17,566 nt of DNA, from the IMG/VR virus record IMGVR_UViG_3300029071_000015, one strand, 5' to 3'. This DNA is from a virus (lineage: Duplodnaviria; Heunggongvirae; Uroviricota; Caudoviricetes). Within the stretch, counting starts at the first letter, position 1. Each line of letters begins with the position of its first letter. Below are positions 1 through 13,444 of the stretch, one piece after another. The notes beneath the pieces were generated by a model. The model did not search any database. It was not told where the DNA came from and saw only the letters and a program-made list of their open reading frames with translations. A program made the position numbers and the translations under genes.

Positions 1-987
1 ATGAACGCAATAATATCGCCCGATTATTACTATGTTCTTACCGTTGCCGGTCAGTCTAATGCTATGGCGTATGGCGAAGGACTCCCGTTACCAGACAGTG
101 AAGATGCGCCTCATCCCAGAATAAAACAACTGGCGAGATTCACTCAGACGCATCCCGGTGGCCCGTTATGTCAATTTAATGACATTATTCCACTGACTCA
201 CTGCCCACACGATGTCCAGGATATGCAGGGTTATCACCATCCTCTGGCAACGAATCATCAAACACAGTACGGCACCGTTGGCCAGGCACTACATATTGCG
301 CGGAAATTACTGCCCTTCATTCCTGATAATGCAGGCGTTCTTATCGTTCCCTGTTGCCGTGGTGGATCGGCTTTTACCACGGGCAGCGAAGGGACATATT
401 CAGAACAGCACGGAGCCAGCCATGATTCATGTCGTTGGGGAGCGGATACTCCGCTGTATCAGGATTTAGTCAACAGAACACGAACGGCACTGTCAAAGAA
501 TCCGCAGAATAAATTCCTCGGCGTATGCTGGATGCAGGGCGAATTTGACTTAATGACCAGTGACTACGCGTTACATCCTCAATACTTTAATCATATGGTT
601 GAAGCCTTTCGTGAGGATTTGAAACAGTATCGTTCTCAGCTTAATAATATTGCTGCCGCTCCGTGGTTTTGCGGCGATACCACCTGGTACTGGAAAGAAA
701 ATTACCCTCATTCGTATGAAACGATTTATGGCAATTATAAAAATAATGCCTTAGCCAATATTATTTTCGTCGGCTTCCAGCAACAAGGTGAAAGAGGGCT
801 GACGAACGAGCCAGATGAAGATCCGGACGATTTTATCACGGGATATTACGGTTCAGCGTACCGAACACCAGAAAACTGGACGACGGTGCTACGCAGCAGT
901 CATTTCAGCTCAGCAGCCCGTCGGGGGATTATTTCTGACAAATTTGTTGAAGCTATTTTACGGTATTGGTGCGATATGTGGCTTTAA
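1..987 (+). CDS. nanS: N-acetyl-9-O-acetylneuraminate esterase (SGNH/sialate O-acetylesterase family), NanS/YjhS-like
   Basis: 328-aa ORF starting at window position 1; N-terminal GQSN motif typical of SGNH hydrolases; N-terminus MNAIISPDYYYVLTVAGQSNAMAYGEG matches my recollection of E. coli YjhS/NanS. Not verified by search. Confidence 0.75.
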   Translation: MNAIISPDYYYVLTVAGQSNAMAYGEGLPLPDSEDAPHPRIKQLARFTQTHPGGPLCQFNDIIPLTHCPHDVQDMQGYHHPLATNHQTQYGTVGQALHIARKLLPFIPDNAGVLIVPCCRGGSAFTTGSEGTYSEQHGASHDSCRWGADTPLYQDLVNRTRTALSKNPQNKFLGVCWMQGEFDLMTSDYALHPQYFNHMVEAFREDLKQYRSQLNNIAAAPWFCGDTTWYWKENYPHSYETIYGNYKNNALANIIFVGFQQQGERGLTNEPDEDPDDFITGYYGSAYRTPENWTTVLRSSHFSSAARRGIISDKFVEAILRYWCDMWL

Positions 988-988
988 T

Positions 989-1297
989 ATGCGCCACGAT
1001 GACACCACCGTCGCGCAGGAAGCGGCGCATATAAAATGGAAACAGCACGGCGGCCCTTGTGAAATCCCCAATGGTCTGGCGCTTTGCGCAATTCACCATA
1101 AAGCCTTTGATAAAGGATCGATTGGCCTGGATGAAAATATGCGGGTACTGGTCTCGGATGCGGTAAACGGCGGAGGGATCGTTGAGAAACTATTCTGGGA
1201 TTTTGACGGGAAAACTATTGCGTTGCCGCAGGTGCGTAAAAATTACCCTTTTGAGGGGTTTGTGGAGTGGCATCGGAAAGAGGTTTTTAGGGGGTGA
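989..1297 (+). pseudogene. C-terminal HNH-nuclease-domain fragment (truncated remnant)
   Basis: In-frame Met at 989 immediately after the nanS stop; the translation contains an H-N-H-like pattern (AAHIKWKQHGGPCEIPNGLALCAIHHKAFD). The upstream part of ORF 815..1297 overlaps nanS in another frame and is probably not coding, so no N-terminal domain is present. Confidence 0.3.
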
Positions 1298-1304
1298 GGT
1301 TTGC

Positions 1305-1350
1305 TGTAAATAGACCCGTTTTAGTTCCATGCATTTTTTGAGCTCCCGGC
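1305..1350. repeat. Left arm of a 46-bp inverted repeat (45/46 match to the reverse complement of 2521..2566)
   Basis: tgtaaatagacccgttttagttccatgcattttttgagctcccggc; the reverse complement of 2521..2566 is identical except one base (gagCtcc vs gagAtcc). Confidence 0.85.
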
Positions 1351-1386
1351 ACTGCTAAATCCGCGCTGGGGCAAGTTGGGTTTAGG

Positions 1387-1656
1387 TTGCGCCAGAAGAT
1401 GGCAACTCATCATGGTATGCAGTTCGTTCCATGGCTGAGAGTCACACTGGAGCAAGAGTTTGTACATAACAATCCGGCCAAAGTTAATGATGATAATTTC
1501 AATAACGATATTGCCGGAACAAGAGGAAGTTGCCAGGCTGGCATCAGCGCGGCTACCACGCCGCACACACATATTTACGCCAGCATAAATTATGAGAAAG
1601 GTGATGGGGTGGAATCGCCGTGGACTGGAAACATTGGCTTTAATTATAGTTTCTAA
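1387..1656 (+). CDS. Possible C-terminal fragment of an outer-membrane beta-barrel protein (questionable)
   Basis: 89-aa ORF ending in ...WTGNIGFNYSF with a terminal Phe and alternating aromatic/hydrophobic residues, reminiscent of an OMP C-terminal beta-strand signature; no convincing RBS identified. Confidence 0.2.
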   Translation: MRQKMATHHGMQFVPWLRVTLEQEFVHNNPAKVNDDNFNNDIAGTRGSCQAGISAATTPHTHIYASINYEKGDGVESPWTGNIGFNYSF

Positions 1657-1762
1657 TATGGCATTTCATGTTTATATCAATTCCTATATATCCATTGCTT
1701 TTACAATCAAATGAGAACACCATTCATTATCTTAACAATAGAGATGAAGTCAGGAGACAGCC

Positions 1763-2356
1763 ATGTCATTGCTAGAGTCATTTGGGAAAGTATTAATTAT
1801 ATTGCTTGAAGCATTTTTAGGGAAACGCAAAGGTCAGGAGGAAGCACATATTAATTTTTTAAATGAATATACGAAAGAAAACTGCAACCATCGCTTGGTA
1901 GAATATTGGTTTTGTCAGCTCACAGGATGGCGTTACGCAAAGTACCAGGATATTGTTTTTATAATGATCTCATCCGACCCATCAAAAATATTGTATATGG
2001 CTAAAGGCATTAATTACATTGCCCGTACAGTGGAATTTATTGATAGTGGAGAATGTAAACTATCCGATAGACATAAAGAAACGAAAAAGAATACATTCCT
2101 CTTTTTGTTCATATCATTCATGATCATTTTCTTCATATTAATTGCCTGGATGGTATCCTCTGTAATATCTCTGATAACACATCATCATGATGTCATATTA
2201 ATGGCTATAAATATTTCATCGATAATAGCTGGTGCGATTTTTATCATGTGCTTTGCATTCTTCATTCATGCAATAACAATGGAGTTTTTTGCCTTTGAAA
2301 AGGCAGAGCATTTTGTAAAATCTTACAATGCAGAAAGAGCATCATCAGGTCGTTAA
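1763..2356 (+). CDS. Hypothetical membrane protein (soluble N-terminal ~110 aa followed by 2-3 predicted TM helices)
   Basis: 197-aa ORF with a strong RBS (caggagacagccATG); AT-rich codon usage; hydrophobic stretches FLFLFISFMIIFFILIAWMVSSVISLI and ILMAINISSIIAGAIFIMCFAFFIHAI; lies inside the inverted-repeat-bounded segment. Confidence 0.6.
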   Translation: MSLLESFGKVLIILLEAFLGKRKGQEEAHINFLNEYTKENCNHRLVEYWFCQLTGWRYAKYQDIVFIMISSDPSKILYMAKGINYIARTVEFIDSGECKLSDRHKETKKNTFLFLFISFMIIFFILIAWMVSSVISLITHHHDVILMAINISSIIAGAIFIMCFAFFIHAITMEFFAFEKAEHFVKSYNAERASSGR

Positions 2357-2520
2357 TGTTTGCCTCTATATTAATGCTACTGCTATCGCCACCTATTAAT
2401 ATCTGCCAATCAATAGGCAAAAAGGTGATACCAGTGGCATCAAAATTTCAGCCAAACAATCTTTGTAAGACGAAGATCTCTGATTTAACACTGCACTGAT
2501 TTTGGGCCAGGGTCAATTTG

Positions 2521-2566
2521 GCCGGGATCTCAAAAAATGCATGGAACTAAAACGGGTCTATTTACA
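2521..2566. repeat. Right arm of the 46-bp inverted repeat
   Basis: gccgggatctcaaaaaatgcatggaactaaaacgggtctatttaca; its last base abuts the first codon of the sid remnant. Confidence 0.85.
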
Positions 2567-2698
2567 ACCGGACTGTCAGCGGCAACACTCCCGCACATGG
2601 ATTATGAGGTGGCAGACACACCGGCACAGCGCAAGGTGTGGCAGGACAAAATAGACCAGCAGGCAGCAGAGCTTAAGGCCAGAGGACTGCTGTCATGA
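2567..2698 (+). pseudogene. sid: 3' remnant (last ~43 codons) of a P4 sid-like capsid-size-determination gene
   Basis: Translation TGLSAATLPHMDYEVADTPAQRKVWQDKIDQQAAELKARGLLS* matches my recollection of the P4 Sid C-terminus; the stop overlaps the next start (tcATGAtg), as expected in a sid-delta-psu late operon. Confidence 0.6.
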
Positions 2699-2806
2699 TG
2701 CGCTGCCATTTCTGTCGTCATTCTGCGCATACCCGCACCGGCAAGCACAGCACCGGCTGTTGTCCGAAAAGTTAAAGGCTGTTACAGCTCACCATTCAAC
2801 CATTAA
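2695..2806 (+). pseudogene. ogr/delta-like zinc-finger late activator gene with internal deletion and frameshift
   Basis: Starts MMRCHFCRHSAHTRT (CxxC zinc-finger start like Ogr/delta) and terminates early; its 3' end in another frame encodes KVKGCYSSPFNH*, matching the C-terminus KVQGCYSSPFRH* of the intact copy at 12450..12689. About 110 bp here versus 240 bp in the intact copy. Confidence 0.55.
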
Positions 2807-2820
2807 TCAGGAGACGGGGT

Positions 2821-3393
2821 GTGACTACAATGTCATTACAGCAGGCTTTTGAGGTCTGCCAGAATAATAAAGCGGCATAGCTTCAGCGCAAAAATGAACT
2901 AGCGGCAGCCGAACAGGAATATCTGCGGCTTCTGTCCGGGGAAGGCAGGAATGTCAACCGGCTGGACGAATTACGCAATATTATCGAAGTCAGAAAATGG
3001 CTGGTGAATCAGGCCGCCGGTCGTTATATTCGTTCGCATGAAGCCGTTCAGCACATCAGCATCTGCGACCGGCTGAATGATTTTATGCAGCAGCACGGCA
3101 CAGCACTGGCGGCCGCACTGGCACCGGAGCTGATGGGCTACAGTGAGCTGACGGCCGTTGCCCGAAACTGAGCCATACAGCGTGCCACAGATGCCCTGCG
3201 TGAAGCCCTCCTGTCCTGGCTTGCGAAGGGTGAAAAAATTAATTATTCCGCACAGGATAGCGACATTTTAACGGCTATCGGATTCAGGCCTGACGAGGCT
3301 TCGGTGGATGACAGCCGTGAAAAATTCACTCCTGCGCAGAACATAATTTTTTCCCGTAAAAGTGCAGAACTGGCATCACGTCAGTCTGTGTAA
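2821..3393 (+). pseudogene. psu: psu (polarity suppression protein) pseudogene with two in-frame stop codons
   Basis: A 573-nt frame (190 codons plus stop, GTG start with RBS aggagacgggGTG) alignable along its length to the intact Psu at 12705..13271 (roughly 60% identity by eye); TAG at 2878..2880 where the intact copy has Trp, and TGA near 3170 where a sense codon is expected. Confidence 0.75.
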
Positions 3394-3423
3394 AATTCCC
3401 CGAAAATCCGCCTGTTTTTACTG

Positions 3424-3458
3424 AAAAAAGCCATGCATCGATAAGGTGCATGGCTTTG
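3424..3458 (+). terminator. Putative intrinsic terminator downstream of psu (element 2 copy)
   Basis: Hairpin gccatgca-tcgataagg-tgcatggc followed by ttt; a homologous hairpin follows the intact psu at 13311..13346. Confidence 0.35.
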
Positions 3459-3557
3459 CATGCGTTTTCCCGCCTCATTTCCTGCAGATCACGCCGCACC
3501 CGGCGCGGCCTGAGCGTGTCAGTGCAACTGCATTAAAACCGCTCCGCAAAGCGGGCG

Positions 3558-3576
3558 GGCGAGGCGGGGAAAGCAC
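3558..3576. other. cos site (19-nt P2/P4-type cohesive-end sequence)
   Basis: ggcgaggcggggaaagcac is identical to the P2/P4 cohesive-end sequence as I recall it, and sits downstream of psu as in P4. Confidence 0.6.
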
Positions 3577-3603
3577 TGCGCGCTGCAAATTAATACTAGC
3601 TTA

Positions 3604-4167
3604 TTAAGCATCCGCTTCAAATCCTCCAAGATCGATTTGCTCTTCGATTTCAGGAGTCCAAAGTAATTCTTCTGGCGTAGCGTTTGACCAAAGCAATTTA
3701 CCATTCTCGATAACATACTTAACCGGTATTTTAGGATTGTTTATGTCTTTACCATCTCTTTCATGCCATTGTCTCTCCCATTTATCATAGAAGACTTCCA
3801 AATCACCGGGCATGAGTAAATAAACTGAACGGATAGTGATATTACTATAAATTGCGAACACCCATGGAACCTGCCTATATTTCGCAATTATTGTTGGATT
3901 CATATGATGGTGAGTTGAAAAACTTTTAGTTAACTCAACATTAACTGATTTTAATTCAAACTCAGTACCAGTGACATCTACTGCATCATTACCTTCTCGC
4001 CCAGGAAGAACTTTAAGACTGAGAAGTAAAAGAACTTGCAGGAGTTTCCCTCCGTTATCTTGGAATATATCATTGATTCCGTGCTTATTAGCTAACCGTT
4101 GATATTCTTCAACCTGAGGCCAAAGCGCAATTAAATTTGACCAATCTTGATGCAACTCAAATTTCAT
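3604..4167 (-). CDS. Type II restriction endonuclease, PvuII-like (PD-(D/E)xK)
   Basis: 187-aa ORF; segments [51 protein letters not shown] and DKWER match my recollection of R.PvuII, including the catalytic D...E-x-K; ATGA overlap with the upstream C gene; divergent from the methyltransferase. Confidence 0.75.
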
Positions 4168-4400
4168 ACCTGATTATTCTCCAACAGGGAACTGGGAGAG
4201 ACGCCAAGGGCTGAAGCAATTCGGTCGATATTATCAATGGAAATATTTCTTTCACATCGCTCTACTGATCCGATGTAAGTTCTATGCAAGCCTGCTAAGT
4301 CAGCCAAGGCTTCTTGAGACAACCCTTGTCTCTCCCTTAACTTTCTGATGTTATGGGCAAAAATCACTCTTGCTCTTGAGGGGTTTATCTTTCGTTCCAT
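4164..4400 (-). CDS. Controller (C) protein of restriction-modification system, XRE-family HTH
   Basis: 78-aa ORF with a helix-turn-helix region ([41 protein letters not shown]) resembling C.PvuII-type controller proteins; sits immediately upstream of and overlaps the endonuclease gene. Confidence 0.8.
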
Positions 4401-4427
4401 TCGCGAGACAATGCAGCCTTGATGACA

Positions 4428-4452
4428 ATAGATCTACAGACTATGAGTAGCA
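4428..4452. promoter_or_regulatory. Putative C-box operator in the divergent M/C-R intergenic region
   Basis: The 55-bp intergenic region contains dyad-symmetric elements (tagatcta; actatgagt, i.e. ACT-N3-AGT) just upstream of the C gene start, where C-protein operators normally lie. Confidence 0.4.
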
Positions 4453-4455
4453 GTT

Positions 4456-5430
4456 ATGACATTTGACAATAAAAAACCTGCGTACAAAACAGATTTGGGT
4501 GCAATGTACATTGCTGACTCGCTTGAAATGCTTAAATCGATGCCAGACAACAGCTTAAATTTAGTGATGACAAGCCCACCTTTCGCATTACAGCGTAAGA
4601 AAGAATATGGTAATCACGATCAAGAACAGTACATCGATTGGTTTTTAAAATTCGGCGAGCTGATTTTTAAAAAGCTAAAAGATGATGGTAGCTTTGTCGT
4701 CGATTTTGGTGGTGCTTACATGAAAGGAGTGCCTGTTAGAAGTGTCTACAACTTCCGGGTTTTGATCAGGATGATTGATGAGGTTGGGTTCCATCTGGCT
4801 GAGGACTTCTATTGGTTTAACCCTTCAAAACTACCAAGTCCTATTGAGTGGGTTAACAAAAGAAAGCTGCGTGTTAAAGATTCTGTTAACACAATTTGGT
4901 GGTTTAGCAAAACCGAATGGCCAAAGTCAGATATAACTAAAGTTCTTGTTCCCTATAGTGATAGGATGAAAAAACTTATTGAAGACCCTAATAAATATTA
5001 TTCCCCCAAAATGCGTCCATCAGGGCATGATATAAGCAGCAGCTTTGGCAAAGATAATGGCGGTGCTATACCTCCAAATTTATTGCAAATTCCCAACTCC
5101 GAATCTAACGGTGGATATTTATCGAGTTGTAAAAAAATTGGCGTTAAGGGGCATCCAGCACGATTCCCATCTAAATTGCCGGAGTTTTTCATTACAATGT
5201 TAACAGAGCCGGGTGATCTTGTTGTAGATATTTTTGGCGGTTCAAATACAACTGGAAGTGTTGCTGAACGATTAAAACGCAAATGGCTTTCATTTGAAAT
5301 ATTACCTGAATATGTAGCCGCATCTGTATTTAGATTTACAGATAAAAATACAAGTCAAGATATACTTCAAGAGATGTATGACACTATATTAAATGGAAAT
5401 ACTCTCGATTTATGCGCCAAAGAGAAATAA
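4456..5430 (+). CDS. DNA methyltransferase, beta-class amino-MTase (likely N4-cytosine, M.PvuII-like)
   Basis: 324-aa ORF; motif IV TSPPF near the N-terminus and motif I FGGSNTTG near the C-terminus (the circularly permuted order typical of beta-class N4C/N6A MTases); divergently arranged to the C-R genes. Confidence 0.8.
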   Translation: MTFDNKKPAYKTDLGAMYIADSLEMLKSMPDNSLNLVMTSPPFALQRKKEYGNHDQEQYIDWFLKFGELIFKKLKDDGSFVVDFGGAYMKGVPVRSVYNFRVLIRMIDEVGFHLAEDFYWFNPSKLPSPIEWVNKRKLRVKDSVNTIWWFSKTEWPKSDITKVLVPYSDRMKKLIEDPNKYYSPKMRPSGHDISSSFGKDNGGAIPPNLLQIPNSESNGGYLSSCKKIGVKGHPARFPSKLPEFFITMLTEPGDLVVDIFGGSNTTGSVAERLKRKWLSFEILPEYVAASVFRFTDKNTSQDILQEMYDTILNGNTLDLCAKEK

Positions 5431-5505
5431 GGTCAAATCGTAGTTAGCTAATTCGTAAAGAAAGCCAGTCATAGAGTCAGATTGGCTTTCTATCAGCATA
5501 AATAA

Positions 5506-6764
5506 TTAAGCATGAAGTTTTGCGTAGTCAAATGGACTAATAGGTTTAATCTTGTTTGCATCAAGATAATCAGCCCACCATTGAACCATTAATCGCCTTT
5601 CATCCAAATGTTCAGGGGTATGAATATAAGCTGCCCTAACACTATTACGCTCAGAATGACTCAACTGACGTTCTATCGCGTCATCACTCCATAGCCCCGA
5701 CTCCCCCAACGCACCACGTGCCATATTCCTAAAACCATGACCACAGACTTCCGTTTTTGTGTTATATCCCATCGCACGCAATGCATTGTTTACCGTATTT
5801 TCACTCATAACCTTAGCTGCGTCATGATCTCCCGGGAAAAGAAGCTCTTTATCACCACTAATCTGCTCAAGCTGTACTAACAACATCATCGCCTGCTGGC
5901 TAAGTGGAACTATATGCTCCTCTTTCATTTTCATGCCGCGATACGAGTAACGCACACCTTTAATTTCTTCACGTTTTGCCGGAATACGCCAAATAGCGTT
6001 ATCAAAATCAAATTCTTTCCAACGAGCAAAACGCAATTCGCTTGAACGAACAAAAGTTAGTAAAGAAAGCTCAACCGCAATTTTCGTCATCATACGACCA
6101 CGATATGCAGCAAGACGCGCCAAGAACTCAGGGAAACGATGTGAGGGTAGCGCCGGATAGTGCCGCATTTTAGATGTCGATAACGCTCCAGCCATATCAC
6201 TTGCAGGATTCGAGTCTATATAATCGTTCTGTACGGCATAGCGCATAATAGTAGTGACACGTTGCTGAAGACGCTGCGCTACATCATGCTTACCACTGGC
6301 ATCAACTTTTTTATCGGAGCTAGAAGATGACTAGTTTTAAGCTGTCGGATATCAGACGAGCCAATATAAGGGAAGATATAAAGCTCTAGATAGCGAAGAA
6401 CGCGCCCCCGATGATCCTCGCTCCAACGTTTGTTGCTGGCATGCCATTCACGGGTAATAGTTTCAAAATTATAAGTACCAGCATTCTCTGCTTGGGCCTC
6501 TTTTCGTACTGCTTTTGGATCTATGCCGTGTGCCAGCAACTTTTTCGCTTCATCCCTTCTCGTTCTAGCTTCAGCAAGCGTCACGGTCGGCCAAACACCA
6601 AAAGCAAGACGATCCTCTTTTTTGTCGGAGGGGCGTCTGTATTTCATACGCCAATATTTAGAGCCTTTGATAGAAACCTCAAGATACAAACCGCCACCAT
6701 CAGCCATTTTGTAGGTTTTGTCTTTTAGCTTTGCGGTCTCGACTTGTCTGGCGTTGAGCTTCAT
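5506..6764 (-). pseudogene. int: P4-family tyrosine integrase, frameshifted (split into 6279..6764 and 5506..6246 ORFs)
   Basis: The two ORFs together align along the intact integrase at 16301..17566 (roughly 85-90% identity); the nucleotide alignment shows a 1-bp deletion near 6270..6290 (ttttttatcgg versus ttttttaatcgg in the intact copy) that breaks the frame. Confidence 0.8.
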
Positions 6765-6916
6765 TTTGGGGGCACATTTCTAATCGAAGTTAAGATGCCC
6801 CCAATGATATCCGGATTTCAACGGACAACCTCGGAAGAGGTAGGACGTAAAAATCGCTGCAAGCATTGATTTTAAAGGGATATTTGGACTTTCTCGGATG
6901 GTCTTGGAAGTACTAA

Positions 6917-6935
6917 TGGTGCGAAGGCCGGACTC
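6917..6935 (-). other. att core remnant: partial copy of a tRNA-Leu (leuX-like) 3' end
   Basis: tggtgcgaaggccggactc is the reverse complement of a tRNA-Leu 3' end (...GAGTCCGGCCTTCG(G)CACCA) with one base missing; located ~150 bp upstream of the frameshifted int, in the same orientation as a tRNA-int arrangement. Confidence 0.45.
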
Positions 6936-7080
6936 AAATTACGATATAACATACTGAAATATAATAATTTTAAATTAAAAGGAAAGTAATATGCCCCCTT
7001 TTGTGCCCCCAACGATTTTTTTGAGCATATAAAACCTAGCTAATTGATATTGCTAACAAATTAAAGATTAACTCCCTATT

Positions 7081-7111
7081 CGGTTAGGATCCGAAATCCG
7101 GATCCTAACCG
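7081..7111. repeat. Perfect 13-bp inverted repeat with 5-nt spacer
   Basis: cggttaggatccg-aaatc-cggatcctaaccg; no flanking T-run, so not a typical intrinsic terminator. Confidence 0.7.
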
Positions 7112-7129
7112 GAACTTAATCCCCACAAA

Positions 7130-7415
7130 AAAGTTTTTTTGCATTTAACTGTTCATACTGTTCACCTTGGTTATTTCTCATTTTATATCATGCAGTTAAG
7201 TGATGATGAGTTGGTGAAGGGTGAACAGTCGACTCTTCACCTTTGTTCGTTTTACTCATTCTGGGGGGGCCCCGTCAGGCGATACACGGGGGGATAAAAA
7301 GTTTTTTCCGGTTTTACTGTTCACACTGTTCACCTCTGGTTTTTTATCAATAATTTCATGGTGATACAGGGTGAACATACGGTGAAGGGTGAACAGTGGA
7401 GTGTTCACCCTGTGG
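7130..7415. promoter_or_regulatory. crr-like cis replication region: two ~120-bp direct repeats containing TGTTCACC-type iterons in both orientations
   Basis: Unit 1 (about 7130..7245) and unit 2 (about 7296..7415) each contain aaaaagttttttt, ctgttcaNactgttcacc and ggtgaagggtgaacag; TGTTCACC is the P4 alpha-protein type I iteron; located just past the 3' end of the primase gene, as crr is in P4. Confidence 0.55.
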
Positions 7416-7461
7416 CAATGTCCAGTAAGAAAATGACCGGCTATTGCCGGTCTTAGGTTGG

Positions 7462-9795
7462 TTATGCCTCTGCGGGGTCGTCGCACTTCGGCAGCCAGTC
7501 GCCGTAGCTTTCCTCTTTCAGCGACAGGTTAGTCTGTATCCCCTGCTTTGTGTGCCGCTTCTCATAATTCAGGCCGTACTCTTTCAGCATCATGGGCAGC
7601 CCCAGCCCGAACATTTTCAGGCTGAGTACGTTCCTGTACCCGTTAGCCTCCATATAGGCCAGATACGCGTGATAGAGATATTTACGGTAATTACGCGGGA
7701 TGATGCTGGCATTCCCCATAAACATCCCGTTGGTCTGCGGGAGCATTTCCAGATAGCCGCAAAAATCAAACGTCGGGTCAGCATCGCGCTTGATGCTGAG
7801 CGCCTCGTCGGAGTTCTGCTGCGACTGGAGCAGTGCGCGCGCTGCCATCGGGTCGCTGAATTTCTGCATAAGCTGGCGCACAATCACGGCCAGCTCACGC
7901 GCAATTTTATCCCTGAGCTGCGGGTCGCGTTCCTCCGGCGCAATCTGCTCCGGGAAGTGGATAATCACCCGGCGGCGCGACACACCGCCGCTGCGGTCGG
8001 TGAAGCGCATGGGGTTATTGTTCACGGCCAGAATCACCGCCGGAATATGTGTTGAGTATGGGTTCTGGTATTTCGGGTCAACTGAGACCGCATCGCCGCC
8101 GGTGATGGCCTTAAGTCCTGCGCCGTCACCGCTCCATTTTTCCTGGTCTGGCAGACGGATTAGCGAGAAGCCAATCAGGGAGGCACGCTTGCGCGGGTCT
8201 TCCAGTGTGTCGATATCGGCCGACGTGGCGTTATCTTCCCCGGCGAGCAGGGTCGCGATTTCGGCCAGAATACTTTTGCCGCTCCCGCCGGGGCCGGTGA
8301 CTTCGAGAAAGAGCTGCCAGTCGTAGCGGTTCGCCAGTACCATAAACAGCGCGGCCAGAATCACGTCGCGTTTTTGTGGATTTTTGCCGGCCGCACGGTC
8401 GAGCCAGCGCCAGAAGTTCGGCGAGTGAGTCTCCAGCGTTTCCCCGTCCACCGGTGGGGTGAAATCCACGTCGCACAGCGTGCGCAGCCAGTGTGATTTA
8501 CTGTGCGGGCTGAACAGGCCGCTCTGGGTATCGAGTACCCCGTTGCGAAAGCCAATCAGACGACGCGCCGGTGTATCCTGCTGCGGAATAATCAGTTTCA
8601 GGGTCTCCACCACCGAGGCAATTTTCCCCGATGAGAACGGGGCGCGCAGACGCTGGAATAAGTCAGCCACATTCCGTGAAAAAGTGGCGGCAGGGATATT
8701 TTTCCAGATGCCGTTTTCATAGCGGGACAGGAGCTGGCCGTTTGCATCCACCGCCAGCGCTTCGCCGTAATGCTCATGCACCCGCAAGGCCTTGTCGCTG
8801 GCGCTCATGGCGGTAAATTCCGCCTCGCTCATGGTATCAAACGGGCTTTGCGCCGGTGGCCGGATAGCGTCATAAATGGCTTTGCGTGTCGCATCCTCAC
8901 CATTCTGCATAAACGCATCATTCCAGTCACCGAACACCGGCGGCAGGGCGACAATGCCCTCACAGGCTTCTGCGGCCGCGGCGGCTTTACTCTGGCCGTC
9001 GCCGTTAAGGTCACGGTCGGCGGCGAGCACAATCTGACAGGCCGGGTGTTTTTGTCGGGCAAGGCTCGCCAGAGAAAGGAGGTTCACGGAGGACAGCGCC
9101 ACCATGACGGTTTCGCCGGTCAGGTGATGCACGGTGAGCGCGGTCGCATAACCCTCCGCTATCCACAGGCGCTTTCCCGCCTGTTTTTTCCCTTCGATGA
9201 TGTGGCACGCTCCTTTTACCGCCCCGCCTTTCAGGGTGCGTTTGAGACCGTCAGAATTAATAAGCTGAACGTTAACCAGCGCCCCGGCATCGTCATACAG
9301 TGGGACAACCATATCACCGGCGCGGAACGTCACACCGCCGGTTTTGTGTGTGGCCGTCAGCATGACACACTCATGACCGGGGAATCCCTTGCGGGTGAGG
9401 TAGGCATTGCCGCTGGCCGGTCGGGTTTTCTCCATGAGCCTGACGGCCAGCGCGGCCGCCGCCTGGCGGTCAACCTCCGTTTCTGCTTCTGCGGCCGCAA
9501 TCACTTCCGGGGCAACCGGCGGCAGGTTGCCGGTCACGGCGTTCACCTTTTGAGCTGCCTCTGACGGATTTACACCGAACACCTTTTCAACCAGCTTAAG
9601 CCCGTCACCTGCGCCACACTGATTGCAAAACCACGTCCCGCGCCCTTCTTTATCATCAAAGCGGAAACGGTCAGAGCCGCCACACACCGGGCAGGACTGA
9701 TGGCGGTTTTTAATCACCTTCACACCCAGCGCAGGGAGAATGTGCGGCCAGTGGCCGCAGGCCTGTTTTACCGTTTCTGTTACGTTCATTTTCAT
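7462..9795 (-). CDS. P4 alpha-like primase-helicase (zinc-binding primase, P-loop NTPase)
   Basis: Long ORF; start chosen at MKMNVTETV with RBS gagggagaaaacaaccATG; N-terminal zinc-finger CPVCGGSDRF...FCNQCG; Walker A GPGGSGKS; size comparable to P4 alpha. Confidence 0.9.
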   Translation of the reverse strand: MKMNVTETVKQACGHWPHILPALGVKVIKNRHQSCPVCGGSDRFRFDDKEGRGTWFCNQCGAGDGLKLVEKVFGVNPSEAAQKVNAVTGNLPPVAPEVIAAAEAETEVDRQAAAALAVRLMEKTRPASGNAYLTRKGFPGHECVMLTATHKTGGVTFRAGDMVVPLYDDAGALVNVQLINSDGLKRTLKGGAVKGACHIIEGKKQAGKRLWIAEGYATALTVHHLTGETVMVALSSVNLLSLASLARQKHPACQIVLAADRDLNGDGQSKAAAAAEACEGIVALPPVFGDWNDAFMQNGEDATRKAIYDAIRPPAQSPFDTMSEAEFTAMSASDKALRVHEHYGEALAVDANGQLLSRYENGIWKNIPAATFSRNVADLFQRLRAPFSSGKIASVVETLKLIIPQQDTPARRLIGFRNGVLDTQSGLFSPHSKSHWLRTLCDVDFTPPVDGETLETHSPNFWRWLDRAAGKNPQKRDVILAALFMVLANRYDWQLFLEVTGPGGSGKSILAEIATLLAGEDNATSADIDTLEDPRKRASLIGFSLIRLPDQEKWSGDGAGLKAITGGDAVSVDPKYQNPYSTHIPAVILAVNNNPMRFTDRSGGVSRRRVIIHFPEQIAPEERDPQLRDKIARELAVIVRQLMQKFSDPMAARALLQSQQNSDEALSIKRDADPTFDFCGYLEMLPQTNGMFMGNASIIPRNYRKYLYHAYLAYMEANGYRNVLSLKMFGLGLPMMLKEYGLNYEKRHTKQGIQTNLSLKEESYGDWLPKCDDPAEA

Positions 9796-9809
9796 GGTTG
9801 TTTTCTCCC

Positions 9810-10130
9810 TCAGTGCAGTACCGGCGCGGTGATATGACGGGCGCAAAGCTCATCCATCACGGCCAGCCCGAGAAAGGACAGCGACGGCGCGGCTTTGAGT
9901 GGTCCGGCTTCCATTAAATCCTCCAGTAGTGCACAGGCAATCTGGCGGCCTTTTTCCTCGCCGTGCTGGCGCAGGTAGAAGCCCTCCAGTTCGGCGGCAA
10001 TAGTGCTTTCCAGCGCGTCGAGGGTGAGGTGTGGATGGCGGTGCTGACGTTCGCACAGGGTCAGCCATGCACAGGCCACGGCGCGACGATACAGCGCGGC
10101 GCGTAATACGGGCGGTAATGGCTTTTTCAT
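9810..10130 (-). CDS. Hypothetical protein, P4-family early-operon gene upstream of primase
   Basis: 106-aa ORF ending 14 nt upstream of the primase start; ATGA overlap with the preceding gene suggests an operon. Confidence 0.5.
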
Positions 10131-10354
10131 ACGTTACCCTCCCCGGTCAGCCAGTGCTGATTGCAGCGTTCTACCACGCCGTCGAGCTGGGCAGTCATGA
10201 GATAAATCACGGAGGTGAGCTGTAACTGCTGCGCCGGGTCACGCCTAACGGTCGCGCAGTCCTGCACCTGCATCAGGTCGCCGACGAGCTGGCCGACATT
10301 GCGCATATGCTCCAGACATTCGAGGTCACGGGCGGTAATGGTGGTGTGTCTCAT
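10127..10354 (-). CDS. Hypothetical small protein (early operon)
   Basis: About 75-aa ORF; start placed at the second ATG, which overlaps the stop of the upstream small ORF (gcATGAgacac). Confidence 0.45.
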
Positions 10355-10545
10355 GCGCACACCTCCGCAACCGGCAGACGGCCAGCGAACGAGAGAAAGT
10401 AATCGCGAACGAGAGAAAGGCGAGCGGCGTGCTCATCACCGGCAACGGTGCGAAGCATACAGATACGGGGTTTACGGTCTGCGCGACGAACGGCGGCAAA
10501 CACAAAGACAAACTGCGGGTGTGACGGGGTGAGGGTCGTAGCCAT
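10351..10545 (-). CDS. Hypothetical small protein (64 aa)
   Basis: Short version of the 183-aa ORF, starting at MATTLTPSH with GGAG about 9 nt upstream; the longer form would overlap the AlpA-like gene and an apparently non-coding region. Confidence 0.3.
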
Positions 10546-10747
10546 AGCGGCAATCTCCAATAAGTAGCGGTTATCGCCACCACAAGAGCTGCAAATCTCA
10601 TGGGTGGTAGCCCGGACAGGGTTTGCAGTACCGGCCTTATTGGAAACCGGCCAGCCCGAAGGCTGCCCCGCCCGGACCACCATTATCTGACAGGAGCCAC
10701 GGTGTAAGCACCACAGCCCGAAAAATAGGTGTGTCTGAGCAACGACA

Positions 10748-10770
10748 TAAAAAAACACGCTCGGCGCGTG
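10748..10770 (-). terminator. Putative intrinsic terminator (minus strand) downstream of the AlpA-like gene
   Basis: 6-bp stem acacgc/gcgtgt with 5-nt loop, followed on the minus strand by a run of 7-8 U. Confidence 0.35.
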
Positions 10771-10898
10771 TTGTGTCGCCAATAAGTTACACGGGCTGCA
10801 AATCCCGGCTGCCGATTTTGCGACAGCGGGAAAACTATACCTGGAAACGGCGAAAAGAAGCAAGCCAGAAAAAGGGGCTGTTTGCTGAACGGTCATCA

Positions 10899-11165
10899 TC
10901 ACGCGTCATAGCCCTGGTTACGTTCGGCAATGCGATCCGCCATCCATGCAGTGATTTCAGACTGCGCCCACGCCACATTTTTTCCGCCGAGGGAGATTTG
11001 TTTCGGGAAGGCTTCCCGGCTGATAAGGTCGTAAATGGTCGAACGGGACAGGCCGCACAGATGCATCACTTCGGGCAGACGGATAAAGCGCTCGTGAACG
11101 GTATCAGAAACCGGCATCAGCGGCGCGGCAGGGGCAGAAGACGGGGAAGAAAAAGCGGTGTGCAT
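10899..11165 (-). CDS. AlpA/Vis-family phage transcriptional regulator (excisionase-like HTH)
   Basis: 88-aa ORF containing [42 protein letters not shown], typical of AlpA-family proteins; RBS gaggtagcccgATG; the true start may be the internal Met (MPVSD). Confidence 0.75.
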
Positions 11166-11294
11166 CGGGCTACCTCATAAAGTCCATACAGTGCCGGTCG
11201 TGTCCGTCCGGCTTCGGGTAACTCCTTATTATGTCTATATTTTTCCTCAGGTCATGTGAGATTTTCGGGGAAACAAACATTGACTTTTCCCTAT

Positions 11295-11331
11295 GGCAAA
11301 CAAAGGCAAACGCTGGCAAACATATGCAAAT
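11295..11331. promoter_or_regulatory. Four 7-bp direct repeats (GGCAAAC x3, TGCAAAT) at exact 10-bp spacing: putative operator array
   Basis: Repeats start at 11295, 11305, 11315 and 11325; one helical turn apart; in the divergent regulatory region between the AlpA-like and sid-like genes. Confidence 0.4.
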
Positions 11332-11339
11332 CACTGCAT

Positions 11340-11540
11340 TACAATGCAGCAATTTCTATTTCTTTTAGTTATATATTTTTTATTTTTAATCGAAATAAAA
11401 TCTAGATGCTATAGCCAGGGCAAAACAGGAGGGTGAACAGTGGTGAACAGTCGGTGAACAGTCAGACCCTCAACTGTTCACCATTTAACTTACTGTATTA
11501 CTTATCTTTTTATTTAAGGTGAACAGTGGTGAATAGTTAT
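11340..11540. promoter_or_regulatory. ori-like region: AT-rich stretch plus cluster of GGTGAACA/TGTTCACC iterons
   Basis: AT-rich 11340..11410; iterons gggtgaacagtggtgaacagtcggtgaacagt...ctgttcacc (11432..11483) and ggtgaacagtggtgaatagt (11517..11538); same octamer as in the crr-like region. Confidence 0.5.
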
Positions 11541-11612
11541 AAGTAAAAAAACAAACGGTGAGTTAGATTTTCCTGCGACCTTTCTCTGGCCAGCCTGATT
11601 TTAAGGTCTGTT

Positions 11613-11630
11613 TGTGCCAGCACTCTGACA
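11613..11630 (+). promoter_or_regulatory. TGT-N12-ACA element, candidate Ogr/Delta-activated late promoter site (Psid-like)
   Basis: tgtgccagcactctgaca lies ~75-90 bp upstream of the sid-like start; P2/P4 late promoters carry a TGT-N12-ACA activator site around -55. Confidence 0.3.
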
Positions 11631-11702
11631 ACGGTAATGAATCGTGTTGTTGTGCAGGAGGCGTCAGAATCATTTCAGGTTGAACACACGGAGAGCCTGA
11701 AC

Positions 11703-12446
11703 ATGAAACCCGAACTCATTATCAAAGCCATGCAGACCGTTATCAGTAAACAGGATGAAGGCGCGGAACAACGCATTGCCGGTGCGCTGGCCGCACTTAA
11801 CGAAGCAAAAGACGCATACATGGCCAGCATGGAAAAACTCAGCGACATTGAGGCTTCCATTCAGCGTTGTGAGCAGGAACGACAGACTGCCCTCAGTGAA
11901 AGCGCACAGGCCGAACAGGACTGGCGCAGCCGCTTTCGAACCCTGCGTGGCAACCTCACTCCTGAACTGAAAGCTGAACACAGTAAGCGTATCGCCAGCC
12001 GCGAACTGGCTGATGAGTTCACCGGTCTGATTACCGAGCTCGAGAAAGACAAAAGCCTCGCCATGCTTGGCGCATGCTCCTCCGGTACGGCTTATATCCG
12101 CGCCCATGAAAAAGCATTCACCACTTACGCCAACAGCGAGTGGAAGAAGGCGCAGGCCGGAATCAGCCCCGCACTGTTACGTGCCTTCCTGTTGCGTATA
12201 CGGTCGCTGGAAATGAGTGGGGAAACCTCGCCGCGCGCGACCGTGAATCGCGAGCTGGGTGATGCACTTAATATGCAGTCAGCCCTGTATCATTTTAATA
12301 TTACACAGGAGCCGGTTCTGTCCGTAACGGGCATGAATCGTCCGGTAATTACCGGGGTTGATATGGAACTGTTCAAAAGCCCCGCCAAACGGATGAAGCT
12401 TGCCGCTGAACTGGCAGCCAAAAACCCTGAACAGGCGGAGGGCTGA
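11703..12446 (+). CDS. Sid-like protein (putative capsid-size-determination / external scaffold), divergent
   Basis: About 247 aa from the internal Met with RBS ggagagcctgaacATG; coiled-coil-like, Ala/Glu/Gln-rich; sits immediately upstream of delta and psu as sid does in P4; C-terminal segment (EPVLSVTGMNRPVITGVDMELF) shows weak resemblance to the P4 Sid C-terminus seen at 2567..2698. Confidence 0.55.
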   Translation: MKPELIIKAMQTVISKQDEGAEQRIAGALAALNEAKDAYMASMEKLSDIEASIQRCEQERQTALSESAQAEQDWRSRFRTLRGNLTPELKAEHSKRIASRELADEFTGLITELEKDKSLAMLGACSSGTAYIRAHEKAFTTYANSEWKKAQAGISPALLRAFLLRIRSLEMSGETSPRATVNRELGDALNMQSALYHFNITQEPVLSVTGMNRPVITGVDMELFKSPAKRMKLAAELAAKNPEQAEG

Positions 12447-12449
12447 ATT

Positions 12450-12689
12450 ATGTTTCACTGCCCGTTCTGCAAAAAGACCTCGCATGTCCGAACCAGCCGG
12501 TATCTGTCGGAAAACGTCAAACAGCGTTATCACCAGTGTACCAATATCGAATGCTCGGCCACTTTCCGCACCATCGAGTCTGTTGACGGTGTGATACGTG
12601 CCGCACCGGAGAAAACCGACCCCGCCCCGGTGACGCCAGCGCCGCCGCGTAAAGTACAGGGCTGCTACAGCTCGCCGTTCCGGCATTAA
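12450..12689 (+). CDS. Ogr/Delta-family zinc-finger late transcription activator
   Basis: 79-aa ORF MFHCPFCKKTSHVRTSRY...YHQCTNIECSATF with the CxxC...CxxC arrangement of P2 Ogr / P4 delta; starts 3 nt after the sid-like stop. Confidence 0.85.
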   Translation: MFHCPFCKKTSHVRTSRYLSENVKQRYHQCTNIECSATFRTIESVDGVIRAAPEKTDPAPVTPAPPRKVQGCYSSPFRH

Positions 12690-12704
12690 TCAGGAGAGAG
12701 ACAC

Positions 12705-13271: not shown

Positions 13272-13310
13272 CACGCGAAAAAATCCCCGAAAATTCCGCT
13301 ATTTTTCCTG

Positions 13311-13346: not shown

Positions 13347-13444
13347 ATGCAAATCCCCGTATTTTTTATCCCACGCAACACCAGTGCCGGTGCGGCCTGA
13401 GGCCGTTCATGCACCTGCATTAAAAGCGACCTCTTAAGCGGGCA

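What the first reader, a model, noticed from the sequence alone, without database searches (positions are those of the whole stretch)
3604..5430. Complete PvuII-like C-protein-controlled Type II restriction-modification system retained in the decayed satellite
Seen in sequence: a divergent methyltransferase (TSPPF then FGGSNTTG, beta-class order) and a controller-plus-endonuclease operon with ATGA coupling; the endonuclease carries the D...E-x-K catalytic arrangement and several blocks matching my recollection of R.PvuII. All three reading frames are intact although the surrounding satellite genes are pseudogenised, which suggests selection or post-segregational addiction. If the specificity is PvuII-like (CAGCTG), the system would protect against incoming phage and stabilise the locus. 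The endonuclease is about 30 aa longer at the C-terminus than R.PvuII as I recall it.
Basis: partly seen in the sequence, partly recalled or inferred. Interest (0 to 1): 0.5.

Follow-up and report, generated by a model that had tools for sequence, protein, structure and literature searches.

The report
Known PvuII-type restriction system in satellite remnant
The finding is correct but ordinary: it is an intact, selectively maintained copy of the already described SbaI/SptAI (PvuII-like, CAGCTG) restriction-modification system, sitting in the defence-gene hotspot of a decayed P4-like phage satellite in Escherichia marmotae.

Summary
All three ORFs exist exactly as described: R 3604-4167(-), C 4164-4400(-) and M 4456-5430(+). 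R belongs to Pfam Endonuc-PvuII and is 69% identical to R.PvuII. M is a beta-class N4/N6 methyltransferase, 76% identical to M.PvuII. C is a controller protein with near-PvuII C-boxes at 4424-4449.

The system is not new. The proteins are 95-100% identical to Salmonella proteins that databases name SbaIR and SptAIM. The Escherichia sp. TW09308 copy is listed as a PvuII orthologue in a 2013 paper.

In Salmonella the same cassette lies in an intact P4-like satellite between psu/cos and int, the known P4 defence hotspot. Here that satellite has decayed: int has a 1-bp frameshift, psu is truncated and the rest is gone. A second, apparently intact P4-like satellite follows in tandem.

The RM genes are under purifying selection. 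dN/dS against Salmonella is 0.06 for R and M and 0 for C, and M varies only synonymously among 11 E. marmotae sequences. CAGCTG is absent from about 31 kb of E. marmotae DNA, while orthologous E. coli genes carry 6 sites in 6.7 kb. This suggests long-term activity.

Enzyme activity and specificity were not measured. Side note: the 27-aa R tail ends in a conserved D-x-G/A-G-F-x-P/A-D/E motif that PvuII lacks.

The parts
3604..4167 (-). R gene: PvuII-family Type IIP restriction endonuclease, 187 aa (SbaI/SptAI-type). Residues 161-187 form a C-terminal tail that R.PvuII lacks.
   Evidence: Pfam PF09225 E=6.5e-62. PDB R.PvuII 1eyu E=8e-74, query 6-158 = PvuII 3-155. 97% identical to proteins named SbaIR and to the Paratyphi A protein, 69% to R.PvuII. 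PADLOC REase_II PDLC03554, 1-186 of 187, E=3.5e-131. AF2 mean pLDDT 89.7.
4164..4400 (-). C gene: controller (C) protein, 78 aa, HTH with an HRTY recognition helix. Its stop codon overlaps the R start codon (ATGA at 4164-4167).
   Evidence: HTH_3 E=1.5e-16. Best solved relatives are C.BclI (1.8e-16) and C.AhdI. 64% identical to C.PvuII. PADLOC Control_protein E=2.5e-39. Identical in sequence to the C protein on more than 1000 contigs, named from Salmonella among others.
4424..4449 (-). C-boxes (operators OL and OR). On the - strand: TACT-cat-AGTC-tgta-GATC-tat-TGTC, ending 23 nt upstream of the C start codon.
   Evidence: 22 of 26 positions identical to pPvu1 (TACTcatAGTCtgtaGATTcaaAGTC), with the same spacing to the C ATG. 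Consensus GACT-N3-AGTC-TGTA-GACT-N3-AGTC, and the pairing of the TGTA spacer with HRTY-helix C proteins, come from PMC2175313. Invariant in 11 E. marmotae sequences.
4456..5430 (+). M gene: beta-class N4-cytosine DNA methyltransferase, 324 aa, divergent from C-R. Motif IV SPPF lies near the N-terminus and motif I FGGSNTTG near the C-terminus.
   Evidence: PF01555 E=2.8e-46. PDB M.PvuII 1boo E=7.5e-173 over residues 5-319. 76% identical to M.PvuII and 95% to Salmonella copies, one of them named SptAIM. PADLOC MTase_II E=1.6e-203.
3558..3576 (+). cos-type 19-mer GGCGAGGCGGGGAAAGCAC of the decayed satellite, 27 nt beyond the R stop codon. It marks the psu-side edge of the shared RM cassette.
   Evidence: Exact single match, none in 200 shuffles. 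A 3-mismatch variant sits at the equivalent position of the second element and of the Salmonella and E. coli P4-like elements. Window-to-Salmonella identity drops from 90-99% to about 60-80% at this point. That this sequence is the P2/P4 cos site is my recollection.
3539..3554 (-). Terminator-like hairpin followed by a T-run, downstream of R. Candidate terminator of the C-R operon.
   Evidence: Consensus scan only. No functional evidence.
2821..3171 (+). psu remnant of the decayed P4-like satellite (116-aa fragment of a 188-aa protein).
   Evidence: A PF07455 Psu fragment is called at this position in E. marmotae loci L002-L009. 78-79% direct repeat with the intact psu region at 12850-13358.
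5506..6764 (-). P4-type tyrosine integrase pseudogene, split into 161-aa and 246-aa ORFs by a 1-bp deletion near 6313/6314.
   Evidence: Arm-DNA-bind_3 and Phage_int_M on one ORF, Phage_integrase on the other. Alignment with the intact 419-aa Salmonella int shows the single-base gap. The frameshift is shared by all 11 E. marmotae sequences.

Best explanation
This is a functional, C-protein-controlled Type IIP restriction-modification system of the PvuII family. More precisely, it is the Escherichia marmotae copy of the SbaI/SptAI system known from Salmonella.

Inferred mechanism, by homology to PvuII:
- M methylates the internal cytosine of CAGCTG to N4-methylcytosine.
- R, a homodimer, cuts unmethylated CAG|CTG.
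- C binds the two C-boxes upstream of its own gene. It first activates and then represses the C-R operon, so that R appears only after M has protected the chromosome.

Shown here: the cassette is cargo of the cos-proximal psu-int defence hotspot of P4-like satellites. In Salmonella it rides in an intact satellite. In E. marmotae that satellite, at the equivalent chromosomal site, has lost its integrase and all replication and capsid-hijacking genes. The RM genes have stayed intact under purifying selection.

Inferred: the system is retained because it restricts incoming phage and foreign DNA, and/or because losing it kills the cell (post-segregational killing).
For: Family identity.

Near-identity to named SbaI/SptAI proteins, with exact matches on record as E. 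marmotae. Literature listing of Escherichia sp. TW09308, Spt and Sba as PvuII-layout orthologues: PMC3850674.

The catalytic D/E-x-K, the His triplet and the NNPK block are invariant across 52 homologues. The window has Y22. The only difference between the proteins named SbaIR and the Paratyphi A (SptAI) copy is Y22H.

C-boxes match PvuII's at 22 of 26 positions with identical spacing. The TGTA spacer matches the HRTY helix rule.

Context: psu remnant - cos - R-C-M - int pseudogene. The same cassette sits in an intact satellite in Salmonella. The psu-int, cos-adjacent hotspot is known to carry Type II RM systems (PMC9122126). The cassette's similarity boundary lies at cos.

Selection: dN/dS is 0.064 for R, 0 for C (13 synonymous, 0 nonsynonymous) and 0.059 for M. 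Within E. marmotae, M has 5 of 5 synonymous polymorphisms while all strains share the int frameshift.

Footprint of activity: 0 CAGCTG in the 17.6-kb window and in a 20.6-kb E. marmotae locus. E. coli has 6 sites in the orthologous 6.7 kb, and all 6 are altered in E. marmotae. Outgroups have 2-4 sites in the same 4 kb, and control hexamers are unchanged.
Against: No enzymatic or methylome data exist for this strain. Activity of R and the CAGCTG specificity are inferred from homology.

R has strain-lineage substitutions relative to SbaI (D121G, Y135H, Y155N, E186D, N187A). They fall in variable columns but their effect is untested.

From my memory of Naderer et al. 2002, which I could not read, a close relative (SptAI) is naturally R-inactive. 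So intact ORFs do not guarantee activity.

The CAGCTG depletion rests on only about 14 kb of core DNA around one locus. E. coli P4-like relatives also lack CAGCTG in their 6-kb cores, so part of the window's zero count is not host-specific.

dN/dS against Salmonella averages over the whole divergence, including time spent in functional satellites.

The GTDB representative genomes returned no E. marmotae copy, so the system is not in every strain.
Confidence: 0.85

Rival explanations
1. The endonuclease is catalytically dead or not expressed, as reported for SptAI. The locus would then work only as a methyltransferase with a regulator, and the R ORF would be intact merely because too little time has passed.
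For: The system sits in a decayed element. R has lineage-specific substitutions. By my recollection of Naderer 2002, a 97%-identical relative (SptAI) is inactive. REBASE-style naming as 'SptAIP' appears in PMC3185647.
Against: R dN/dS is 0.064, with 21 synonymous and 6 nonsynonymous changes. Every column that is invariant in 52 homologues is kept, including Y22, the only residue that differs between the SbaI and SptAI proteins. The int frameshift is shared by 11 strains that have accumulated polymorphism elsewhere, yet R shows no stop or frameshift. CAGCTG avoidance in core genes is hard to explain with methylation alone.
Confidence: 0.1
2. The system is active but recognises a sequence other than CAGCTG.
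For: R is only 69% and M only 76% identical to the PvuII enzymes. Specificity can change with few substitutions.
Against: R is 97% identical to proteins named SbaIR, and the cluster includes 'type II restriction endonuclease PvuII [Salmonella]'. The blocks I recall as PvuII's DNA contacts (D34, S81-H85, N140-K143 in PvuII numbering) are invariant. Salmonella methylomes assign CAGCTG/m4C to a Type II methyltransferase (PMC4490842; PMC4393132), though I could not confirm it is this gene. The hexamer depleted in E. marmotae is specifically CAGCTG, not its one-base neighbours.
Confidence: 0.03
3. The genes are functional but are kept purely as a selfish addiction module (post-segregational killing), with no defence benefit to the host.
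For: The RM survives in an otherwise eroded island. C-controlled RM systems are known to kill on mis-timed expression and to cause mutual exclusion (PMC12707154).
Against: Nothing here separates addiction from defence. Both predict intact genes and purifying selection. The location in the P4 anti-phage hotspot and the presence of the cassette in intact satellites fit a defence role. This is a complement to the main explanation rather than a true alternative.
Confidence: 0.3

Closest known systems
SbaI (Salmonella enterica serovar Bareilly) and SptAI (serovar Paratyphi A) RM systems; Naderer et al. 2002, J Bacteriol 184:2411
   Same: R is 97%, M about 95% and C 100% identical. Gene order and divergent layout are the same. 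The 187-aa R has the same C-terminal tail. The flanks are the same: a P4-type integrase on the M side and psu/cos on the R side, next to the same chromosomal neighbourhood (ahr/yjgR side).
   Different: In Salmonella the satellite is intact (int 419 aa, psu, delta, sid, alpA, primase). Here it is a remnant. M is 324 aa here versus 331 aa, with a different C-terminal end. The cos 19-mer next to the cassette differs at 3 positions. The psu and int backbones are only about 60-85% identical, so the cassette was exchanged between backbones. The window R has Y22 like SbaI, not H22 like SptAI.
PvuII RM system of Proteus vulgaris plasmid pPvu1 (NC_002632.1)
   Same: Same three-gene architecture (M divergent from C-R). 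C-boxes are 22/26 identical, 23 nt before the C ATG. Catalytic and recognition blocks are conserved. M is beta-class with SPPF.
   Different: About 70% DNA identity. pPvu1 is a small mobilisable plasmid, not a satellite. R.PvuII is 157 aa and lacks the 27-aa tail. pvuIIC ends about 20 nt after the pvuIIR start, whereas here the overlap is ATGA. pvuIIM has an upstream in-frame ATG inside the C-box spacer, and here that ATG is out of frame.
'Esp' system of Escherichia sp. TW09308 (AEME01000001.1), listed in Liang & Blumenthal 2013, PMC3850674
   Same: A PvuII-layout orthologue from a non-coli Escherichia. By my knowledge TW09308 is a cryptic clade V strain, now E. marmotae, so this is very probably the same locus.
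   Different: I could not retrieve that sequence to confirm identity. NCBI taxonomy still files TW09308 as unclassified Escherichia.
EcoO109I and other Type II RM cargo of the P4-like psu-int hotspot (Kita et al. 1999; Rousset et al. 2022, PMC9122126)
   Same: Type II RM carried next to cos, between psu and int, in a P4-like satellite. EcoO109I also has a C protein.
   Different: Unrelated enzymes and specificity. PvuII-type cargo is not among the systems named in the passages I read, which concern E. coli. No complete E. coli genome in the collection holds this cassette at megablast level.

Membership tests
PvuII-family Type IIP restriction endonuclease (Pfam PF09225) | Sequence membership in the Endonuc-PvuII family across the whole catalytic core | tested here: met
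   PF09225 208.6 bits against a cut-off of 25, profile positions 4-155 of 155. E=8e-74 to the R.PvuII crystal sequence.
PvuII-family Type IIP restriction endonuclease (Pfam PF09225) | PD...(D/E)-x-K catalytic residues (PvuII D58, E68, K70; numbering from my knowledge) | tested here: met
   Window D61, E71 and K73 align with them and are invariant in 10, 16 and 52-sequence alignments.
PvuII-family Type IIP restriction endonuclease (Pfam PF09225) | Conserved DNA-recognition blocks (QDNGGK, STHHH, DINNPK in PvuII; assignment from my knowledge of the co-crystal structures) | tested here: met
   All three blocks are identical to PvuII and invariant in the alignments.
PvuII-family Type IIP restriction endonuclease (Pfam PF09225) | Cleavage of unmethylated CAG|CTG as a homodimer | not testable with these tools
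   Needs an enzyme assay. Indirect support only: CAGCTG-specific depletion in host core genes.
Beta-class N4-cytosine DNA methyltransferase (M.PvuII type) | Motif order IV - TRD - I, with an S-P-P-F motif IV and an FxGxG motif I | tested here: met
   SPPF at aa 40-43 and FGGSNTTG at aa ~260-267. Class definition from PMC7544214.
Beta-class N4-cytosine DNA methyltransferase (M.PvuII type) | Close homology to M.PvuII over the full length | tested here: met
   E=7.5e-173 to PDB 1boo, residues 5-319 against 5-319 without gaps. 76% identity.
Beta-class N4-cytosine DNA methyltransferase (M.PvuII type) | Produces N4-methylcytosine at the internal C of CAGCTG | not testable with these tools
   Needs SMRT or nanopore methylome data or an in vitro assay. 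The M.PvuII chemistry is cited from PMC2997769.
C (controller) protein regulon, PvuII/HRTY group | Small HTH protein with an HRTY recognition helix, encoded directly upstream of R and co-oriented with it | tested here: met
   HTH_3. '[12 protein letters not shown]' is present, and C is 64% identical to C.PvuII. C and R overlap by 4 nt.
C (controller) protein regulon, PvuII/HRTY group | Two C-boxes GACT-N3-AGTC separated by a TGTA spacer, upstream of the C gene | tested here: met
   TACTcatAGTCtgtaGATCtatTGTC at 4449..4424. 12 of 16 symmetry positions match, plus the exact TGTA spacer. 22 of 26 positions are identical to PvuII with the same distance to the ATG.
C (controller) protein regulon, PvuII/HRTY group | Autogenous activation then repression of the C-R promoter, delaying R after entry into a new cell | not testable with these tools
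   Needs reporter fusions or establishment assays. Inferred from PvuII work (PMC2175313).
Cargo of the P4-like satellite psu-int (cos-proximal) defence hotspot | Located between psu and int of a P4-like element, directly adjacent to cos | tested here: met
   psu remnant at 2821-3171, cos 19-mer at 3558-3576, RM at 3604-5430, int at 5506-6764. Hotspot definition from PMC9122126.
Cargo of the P4-like satellite psu-int (cos-proximal) defence hotspot | The same cargo is found in intact satellites, and different cargo is found at the same position in related satellites | tested here: met
   Intact Salmonella satellites carry the same cassette. E. coli relatives and the window's own second element carry other cargo after psu.
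Cargo of the P4-like satellite psu-int (cos-proximal) defence hotspot | Measurable anti-phage activity | not testable with these tools
   Needs plaque assays.

The most novel reading that the evidence does not exclude
Two things go beyond what I could find described.

(1) Most R.PvuII relatives, unlike the one enzyme that has been studied structurally, carry a C-terminal tail. It ends in a strongly conserved peptide, D-[AL]-[GA]-G-F-[EG]-[PA]-[DE] (G 52/52, F 51/52). This could be a docking or autoregulatory motif, for example one that controls R activity, R stability, or interaction with a host or partner protein.

(2) In the E. marmotae lineage that carries it, the system may have been resident long enough to purge CAGCTG from core genes. 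It could then act as a standing barrier to DNA flow from E. coli.
Probability: 0.3. Interest if true: 0.45.

Novelty: already known. Interest (0 to 1): 0.15.

Why it matters
As an RM system it adds nothing new. PvuII-type systems are among the best studied. The SbaI/SptAI copies flanked by P4-related genes were described in 2002, and the Escherichia TW09308 copy was listed in 2013.

Its modest value is as a clean natural example. A defence cassette from the P4 satellite hotspot has outlived its vehicle. It has stayed under purifying selection in a dead satellite, and it appears to have left a recognition-site-avoidance footprint in the host's core genes. It also shows the same cassette moving between different satellite backbones, with one junction at cos.

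The conserved tail motif on R is a small open question for enzymologists who work on PvuII.

Tried and rejected
- Megablast of the cassette against 5,426 complete E. coli genomes found only a ~95-bp cos-region match. The phage collection gave no match. So those collections provided no annotated near-identical copy.
- Naderer et al. 2002 could not be read by DOI or PMC id. Its content is cited from my memory, from its title in reference lists, and from how PMC3850674 uses it.
I reached Salmonella loci through the identical C protein instead.
- The single genome-contig scan returned only distant relatives and no Salmonella or E. marmotae, so it gave no DNA for the selection test.
- The idea that the CAGCTG losses reflect mutagenesis at the m4C base was rejected. 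All six E. coli sites are changed at the central G/C in E. marmotae. However, with outgroups these same positions toggle between CAG/CAA and CTG/TTG in other lineages too, so the position of the change carries no signal. Only the total absence does.
- The idea that the window's zero CAGCTG count is entirely host-driven was tempered. E. coli P4-like relatives also have none in their 6-kb cores.
- The idea that the R tail is a beta-clamp-binding motif (QL[SD]LF-like 'QIDLGGF') was rejected. The Q is present only in enteric copies.
- NCBIfam has no model for R.
- My first dN/dS script failed on file naming and was rerun. The first within-species alignment missed 7 loci because of an exact-match anchor and was redone by coordinates.
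- The exact P2/P4 cos 19-mer is not present in the second element. Only a 3-mismatch variant is.
Full report
**What is there**

The interval holds three uninterrupted ORFs at exactly the stated coordinates:
- R, 3604-4167 on the minus strand, 187 aa
- C, 4164-4400 on the minus strand, 78 aa
- M, 4456-5430 on the plus strand, 324 aa

The C stop and the R start share the tetranucleotide ATGA at 4164-4167.

R matches Pfam Endonuc-PvuII over the whole profile (E=6.5e-62). It matches the R.PvuII crystal sequences at E=8e-74.

M matches N6_N4_Mtase. It aligns without gaps to M.PvuII (PDB 1boo) at E=7.5e-173. SPPF (motif IV) precedes FGGSNTTG (motif I). That is the beta-class order defined in PMC7544214, which also states that M.PvuII methylates the central cytosine of CAGCTG.

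C is an HTH_3 protein. Its best solved relatives are the controller proteins C.BclI and C.AhdI. It is 64% identical to C.PvuII.

PADLOC's REBASE-derived models name the three proteins REase_II, Control_protein and MTase_II, with E-values of 3.5e-131, 2.5e-39 and 1.6e-203.

**Regulatory anatomy**

Read in the direction of C, the 55-bp C-M intergenic region contains TACT-cat-AGTC-tgta-GATC-tat-TGTC at 4449..4424. pPvu1 has TACT-cat-AGTC-tgta-GATT-caa-AGTC. The two agree at 22 of 26 positions, and both end 23 nt before the C start codon.

This fits the published consensus GACT-N3-AGTC-N4-GACT-N3-AGTC. It also fits the rule that C proteins with an HRTY recognition helix, which this one has, use a TGTA central spacer (PMC2175313). 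GATC was one of the half-box 2A variants recovered as functional in that study.

By homology, C therefore binds OL to activate the C-R promoter and OR to repress it, delaying R after entry into a new cell. This step is inferred, not shown.

In PvuII the C stop lies about 20 nt downstream of the R start, and R translation was shown experimentally to be independent of C translation (PMC2997769). The window's 4-nt overlap is a different geometry, and whether it couples translation is unknown.

The ATG inside the box 1A-1B spacer starts a longer M isoform in PvuII. Here it is out of frame, giving a seven-codon ORF. M can therefore start only at 4456.

**It is a known system**

The exact R and M proteins are on record from Escherichia marmotae.

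The 90%-identity cluster of R contains proteins that sources call 'Restriction endonuclease SbaIR' and 'type II restriction endonuclease PvuII [Salmonella]'. The M cluster contains 'DNA methyltransferase SptAIM'. The C protein is identical to one found on more than 1000 contigs, named from Salmonella among others.

| Protein | Identity to Salmonella SbaI/SptAI-type copy | Identity to PvuII |
|---|---|---|
| R | 97% | 69% |
| M | about 95% | 76% |
| C | 100% | 64% |

SbaI and SptAI were described by Naderer et al. 2002 (J Bacteriol 184:2411). I could not read that paper. By my recollection it reports that both share PvuII's specificity, lie between P4-related ORFs including an integrase, and that R.SptAI is inactive through a subunit-interface mutation.

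Liang & Blumenthal 2013 (PMC3850674) list 'Esp (Escherichia spp. TW09308)', Spt and Sba as PvuII-layout orthologues. By my knowledge TW09308 is a cryptic clade V strain, now E. marmotae.

The only difference between the proteins named SbaIR and the Paratyphi A copy is Y22H, at a position invariant in 52 homologues. The window has Y22.

**Context**

The window contains two P4-like elements in tandem. Internal 77-80% repeats pair 2765-3471 with 12648-13358 (delta-end/psu) and 5518-6606 with 16319-17408 (int).

The right-hand element looks intact:
- primase 7462-9846
- Psu 12705-13271
- a cos-like 19-mer at 13445-13463
- cargo at 13669-16246
- int 16301-17566

The left-hand element is a remnant:
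- a 116-aa psu fragment at about 2821-3171
- an exact GGCGAGGCGGGGAAAGCAC at 3558-3576, which I recall as the P2/P4 cos sequence
- the RM cassette
- an integrase split by a single-base deletion near 6313/6314

Ten other E. marmotae assemblies show the same remnant between yjgR/ADH-fragment and the nanS-nanM-nanC-fimB side, without the second satellite.

In Salmonella the same cassette sits at the corresponding chromosomal site inside an intact satellite. The order is int (419 aa), M, C, R, Psu, Delta, Sid, AlpA and so on to the primase.

This is the psu-int, cos-adjacent hotspot of P4-like satellites described by Rousset et al. 2022. That hotspot is known to carry Type II RM systems such as EcoO109I.

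Window-to-Salmonella identity is 90-99% from 3565 to about 5660. It falls to about 60-80% immediately beyond cos and to about 80-85% within int. The adjacent cos 19-mers differ at three positions. So the cassette has moved between different satellite backbones, with one junction at cos.

**Is it maintained?**

Window versus Salmonella:

| Gene | Synonymous changes | Nonsynonymous changes | dN/dS |
|---|---|---|---|
| R | 21 | 6 | 0.064 |
| C | 13 | 0 | 0 |
| M | 44 | 12 | 0.059 |

Among 11 E. marmotae sequences, all share the int frameshift, so the decay predates their divergence. The C-box region and C are invariant. M was not a criterion for retrieving these loci, and all five of its polymorphic sites are synonymous. 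R has one conservative change (K140R) in one strain. Eight of these loci were retrieved by exact R sequence, so R variation among them is censored.

It cannot separate defence from addiction.

**A footprint of activity**

CAGCTG does not occur in the 17,566-bp window. About 4.2 sites are expected from shuffles and 5.1 from a Markov estimate. It is also absent from 20.6 kb of E. marmotae chromosome around the locus.

The motif is not rare in Escherichia. An E. coli locus without this RM has 17 sites in 42 kb.

In the orthologous valS-yjgR stretch, E. coli has 6 sites in 6.7 kb. E. marmotae has none, and all six positions are altered.

In the 4-kb pepA-lptG block:

| Sequence | CAGCTG sites |
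|---|---|
| E. coli (L103) | 6 |
| E. coli-like contig (L106, 98.9% identical to L103) | 4 |
| Outgroup L104 | 4 |
| Citrobacter koseri | 2 |
| All eight E. marmotae strains | 0 |

Control hexamers are unchanged (CAGCAG 8 vs 7, CAGCTC 5 vs 7, AAGCTT 3 vs 2). CAGTTG/CAACTG rises from 4 to 11.

The substitutions fall at positions that toggle between CAG/CAA and CTG/TTG in other lineages too. I therefore reject a reading in terms of mutagenesis at the methylated base.

The sample is small and comes from one neighbourhood. E. coli P4-like relatives also lack CAGCTG in their cores. The result is suggestive and not conclusive. It is consistent with long residence of an active CAGCTG-specific endonuclease.

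The GTDB representative genomes returned no E. marmotae copy, so the system is not universal in the species.

**The C-terminal extension**

The extra length of R is 27 aa at the C-terminus plus 3 aa at the N-terminus. It is not peculiar to this copy.

The family is large, with 4,130 clusters at E<=1e-5. Many distant members from Pectobacterium, Serratia, Rahnella, Burkholderia, Pseudomonas and Xanthomonadaceae are about 187 aa. PvuII and some small-plasmid copies are the short forms.

In 52 full-length homologues the linker is variable, but the end is conserved as D-[AL]-[GA]-G-F-[EG]-[PA]-[DE]. The counts are D179 45/52, G182 52/52, F183 51/52 and D/E186 52/52.

An AlphaFold2 monomer model is confident for the core (mean pLDDT 89.7). 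Residues 161-170 score about 90, with a short helix at 165-169. The terminal motif scores 63-69. That would fit a peptide that needs a partner surface, though a monomer model cannot show this.

I found no description of this motif in the papers I could search. Its function is unknown.

**Verdict**

The finding is accurate and its interpretation is supported, but the system is already known. The most likely function is an active CAGCTG/m4C restriction-modification system under C-protein timing control. It was acquired as P4-satellite hotspot cargo and has been retained by selection after the satellite died.

Activity and specificity in this strain remain inferences from very close homology, purifying selection and site avoidance.

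Noticed in passing
window 1-17566; L002 1-20564; L103: CAGCTG is completely absent from the window (expected 4-5) and from 20.6 kb of E. marmotae chromosome. Orthologous E. coli pepA-lptF-lptG has 6 sites, all altered in E. marmotae, and outgroups have 2-4 sites. Control hexamers are unchanged. This suggests recognition-site avoidance in the host's core genome.
   Followed up: partly
window 3607-3687 (- strand; R residues 161-187): The R tail is a family-wide feature: a variable linker ending in a conserved D-[AL]-[GA]-G-F-[EG]-[PA]-[DE] motif (G 52/52, F 51/52). It is absent from R.PvuII. AF2 gives intermediate confidence (63-69) for the motif. Function unknown.
   Followed up: partly
window ~7000-17566: A second, apparently intact P4-like satellite lies in tandem: primase 7462-9846, Psu 12705-13271, int 16301-17566. 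It is absent from the ten other E. marmotae loci examined. Its closest E. coli relatives (93% identity) sit at ssrA, not at this locus.
   Followed up: partly
window 13669-16246: The hotspot cargo of the second satellite is three low-GC ORFs (about 33-36% GC). The first two match the PADLOC candidate defence system PDC-M18 (M18A E=1.5e-38, M18B E=9.6e-16). The third (341 aa) matches nothing in Pfam, NCBIfam or PADLOC.
   Followed up: partly
window 3558-3576 and 13445-13463; L090/L091 8825-8843: The two elements carry different cos-like 19-mers: GGCGAGGCGGGGAAAGCAC and GGCGTGGCGGGGAGAGCAT. The Salmonella satellites with the same RM cassette have the second type. Cassette similarity ends exactly at cos, which implies cargo exchange between backbones at that point.
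   Followed up: partly
window 1763-2356: A 197-aa ORF in a 34-38% GC stretch between the HNH remnant and the psu remnant. It is conserved at this position in all E. marmotae loci and has no hit in Pfam, NCBIfam or PADLOC.
   Followed up: no
window 815-1297: A 160-aa HNH_2 ORF next to nanS. The E. coli DNA that matches it is annotated 'phosphorothioated DNA-binding restriction endonuclease', and a ScoMcrA-SBD + HNH protein follows the satellite in some Salmonella loci. This may be a truncated remnant of another defence gene flanking the island.
   Followed up: no
window 4443-4466: The ATG in the C-box 1A-1B spacer starts the longer M isoform in PvuII. Here it is out of frame (MSSSYDI*), so only the downstream M start at 4456 is usable. 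The mini-ORF overlaps the M start codon.
   Followed up: partly
window 7128-7409 and 11432-11537: Two 114-nt direct repeats (71% identical) lie between the dead integrase and the second satellite's primase. Two 20-nt GGTGAACAGT-type repeats lie 86 nt apart in the second satellite. These may be att- or replication-origin-type repeats. Not examined.
   Followed up: no
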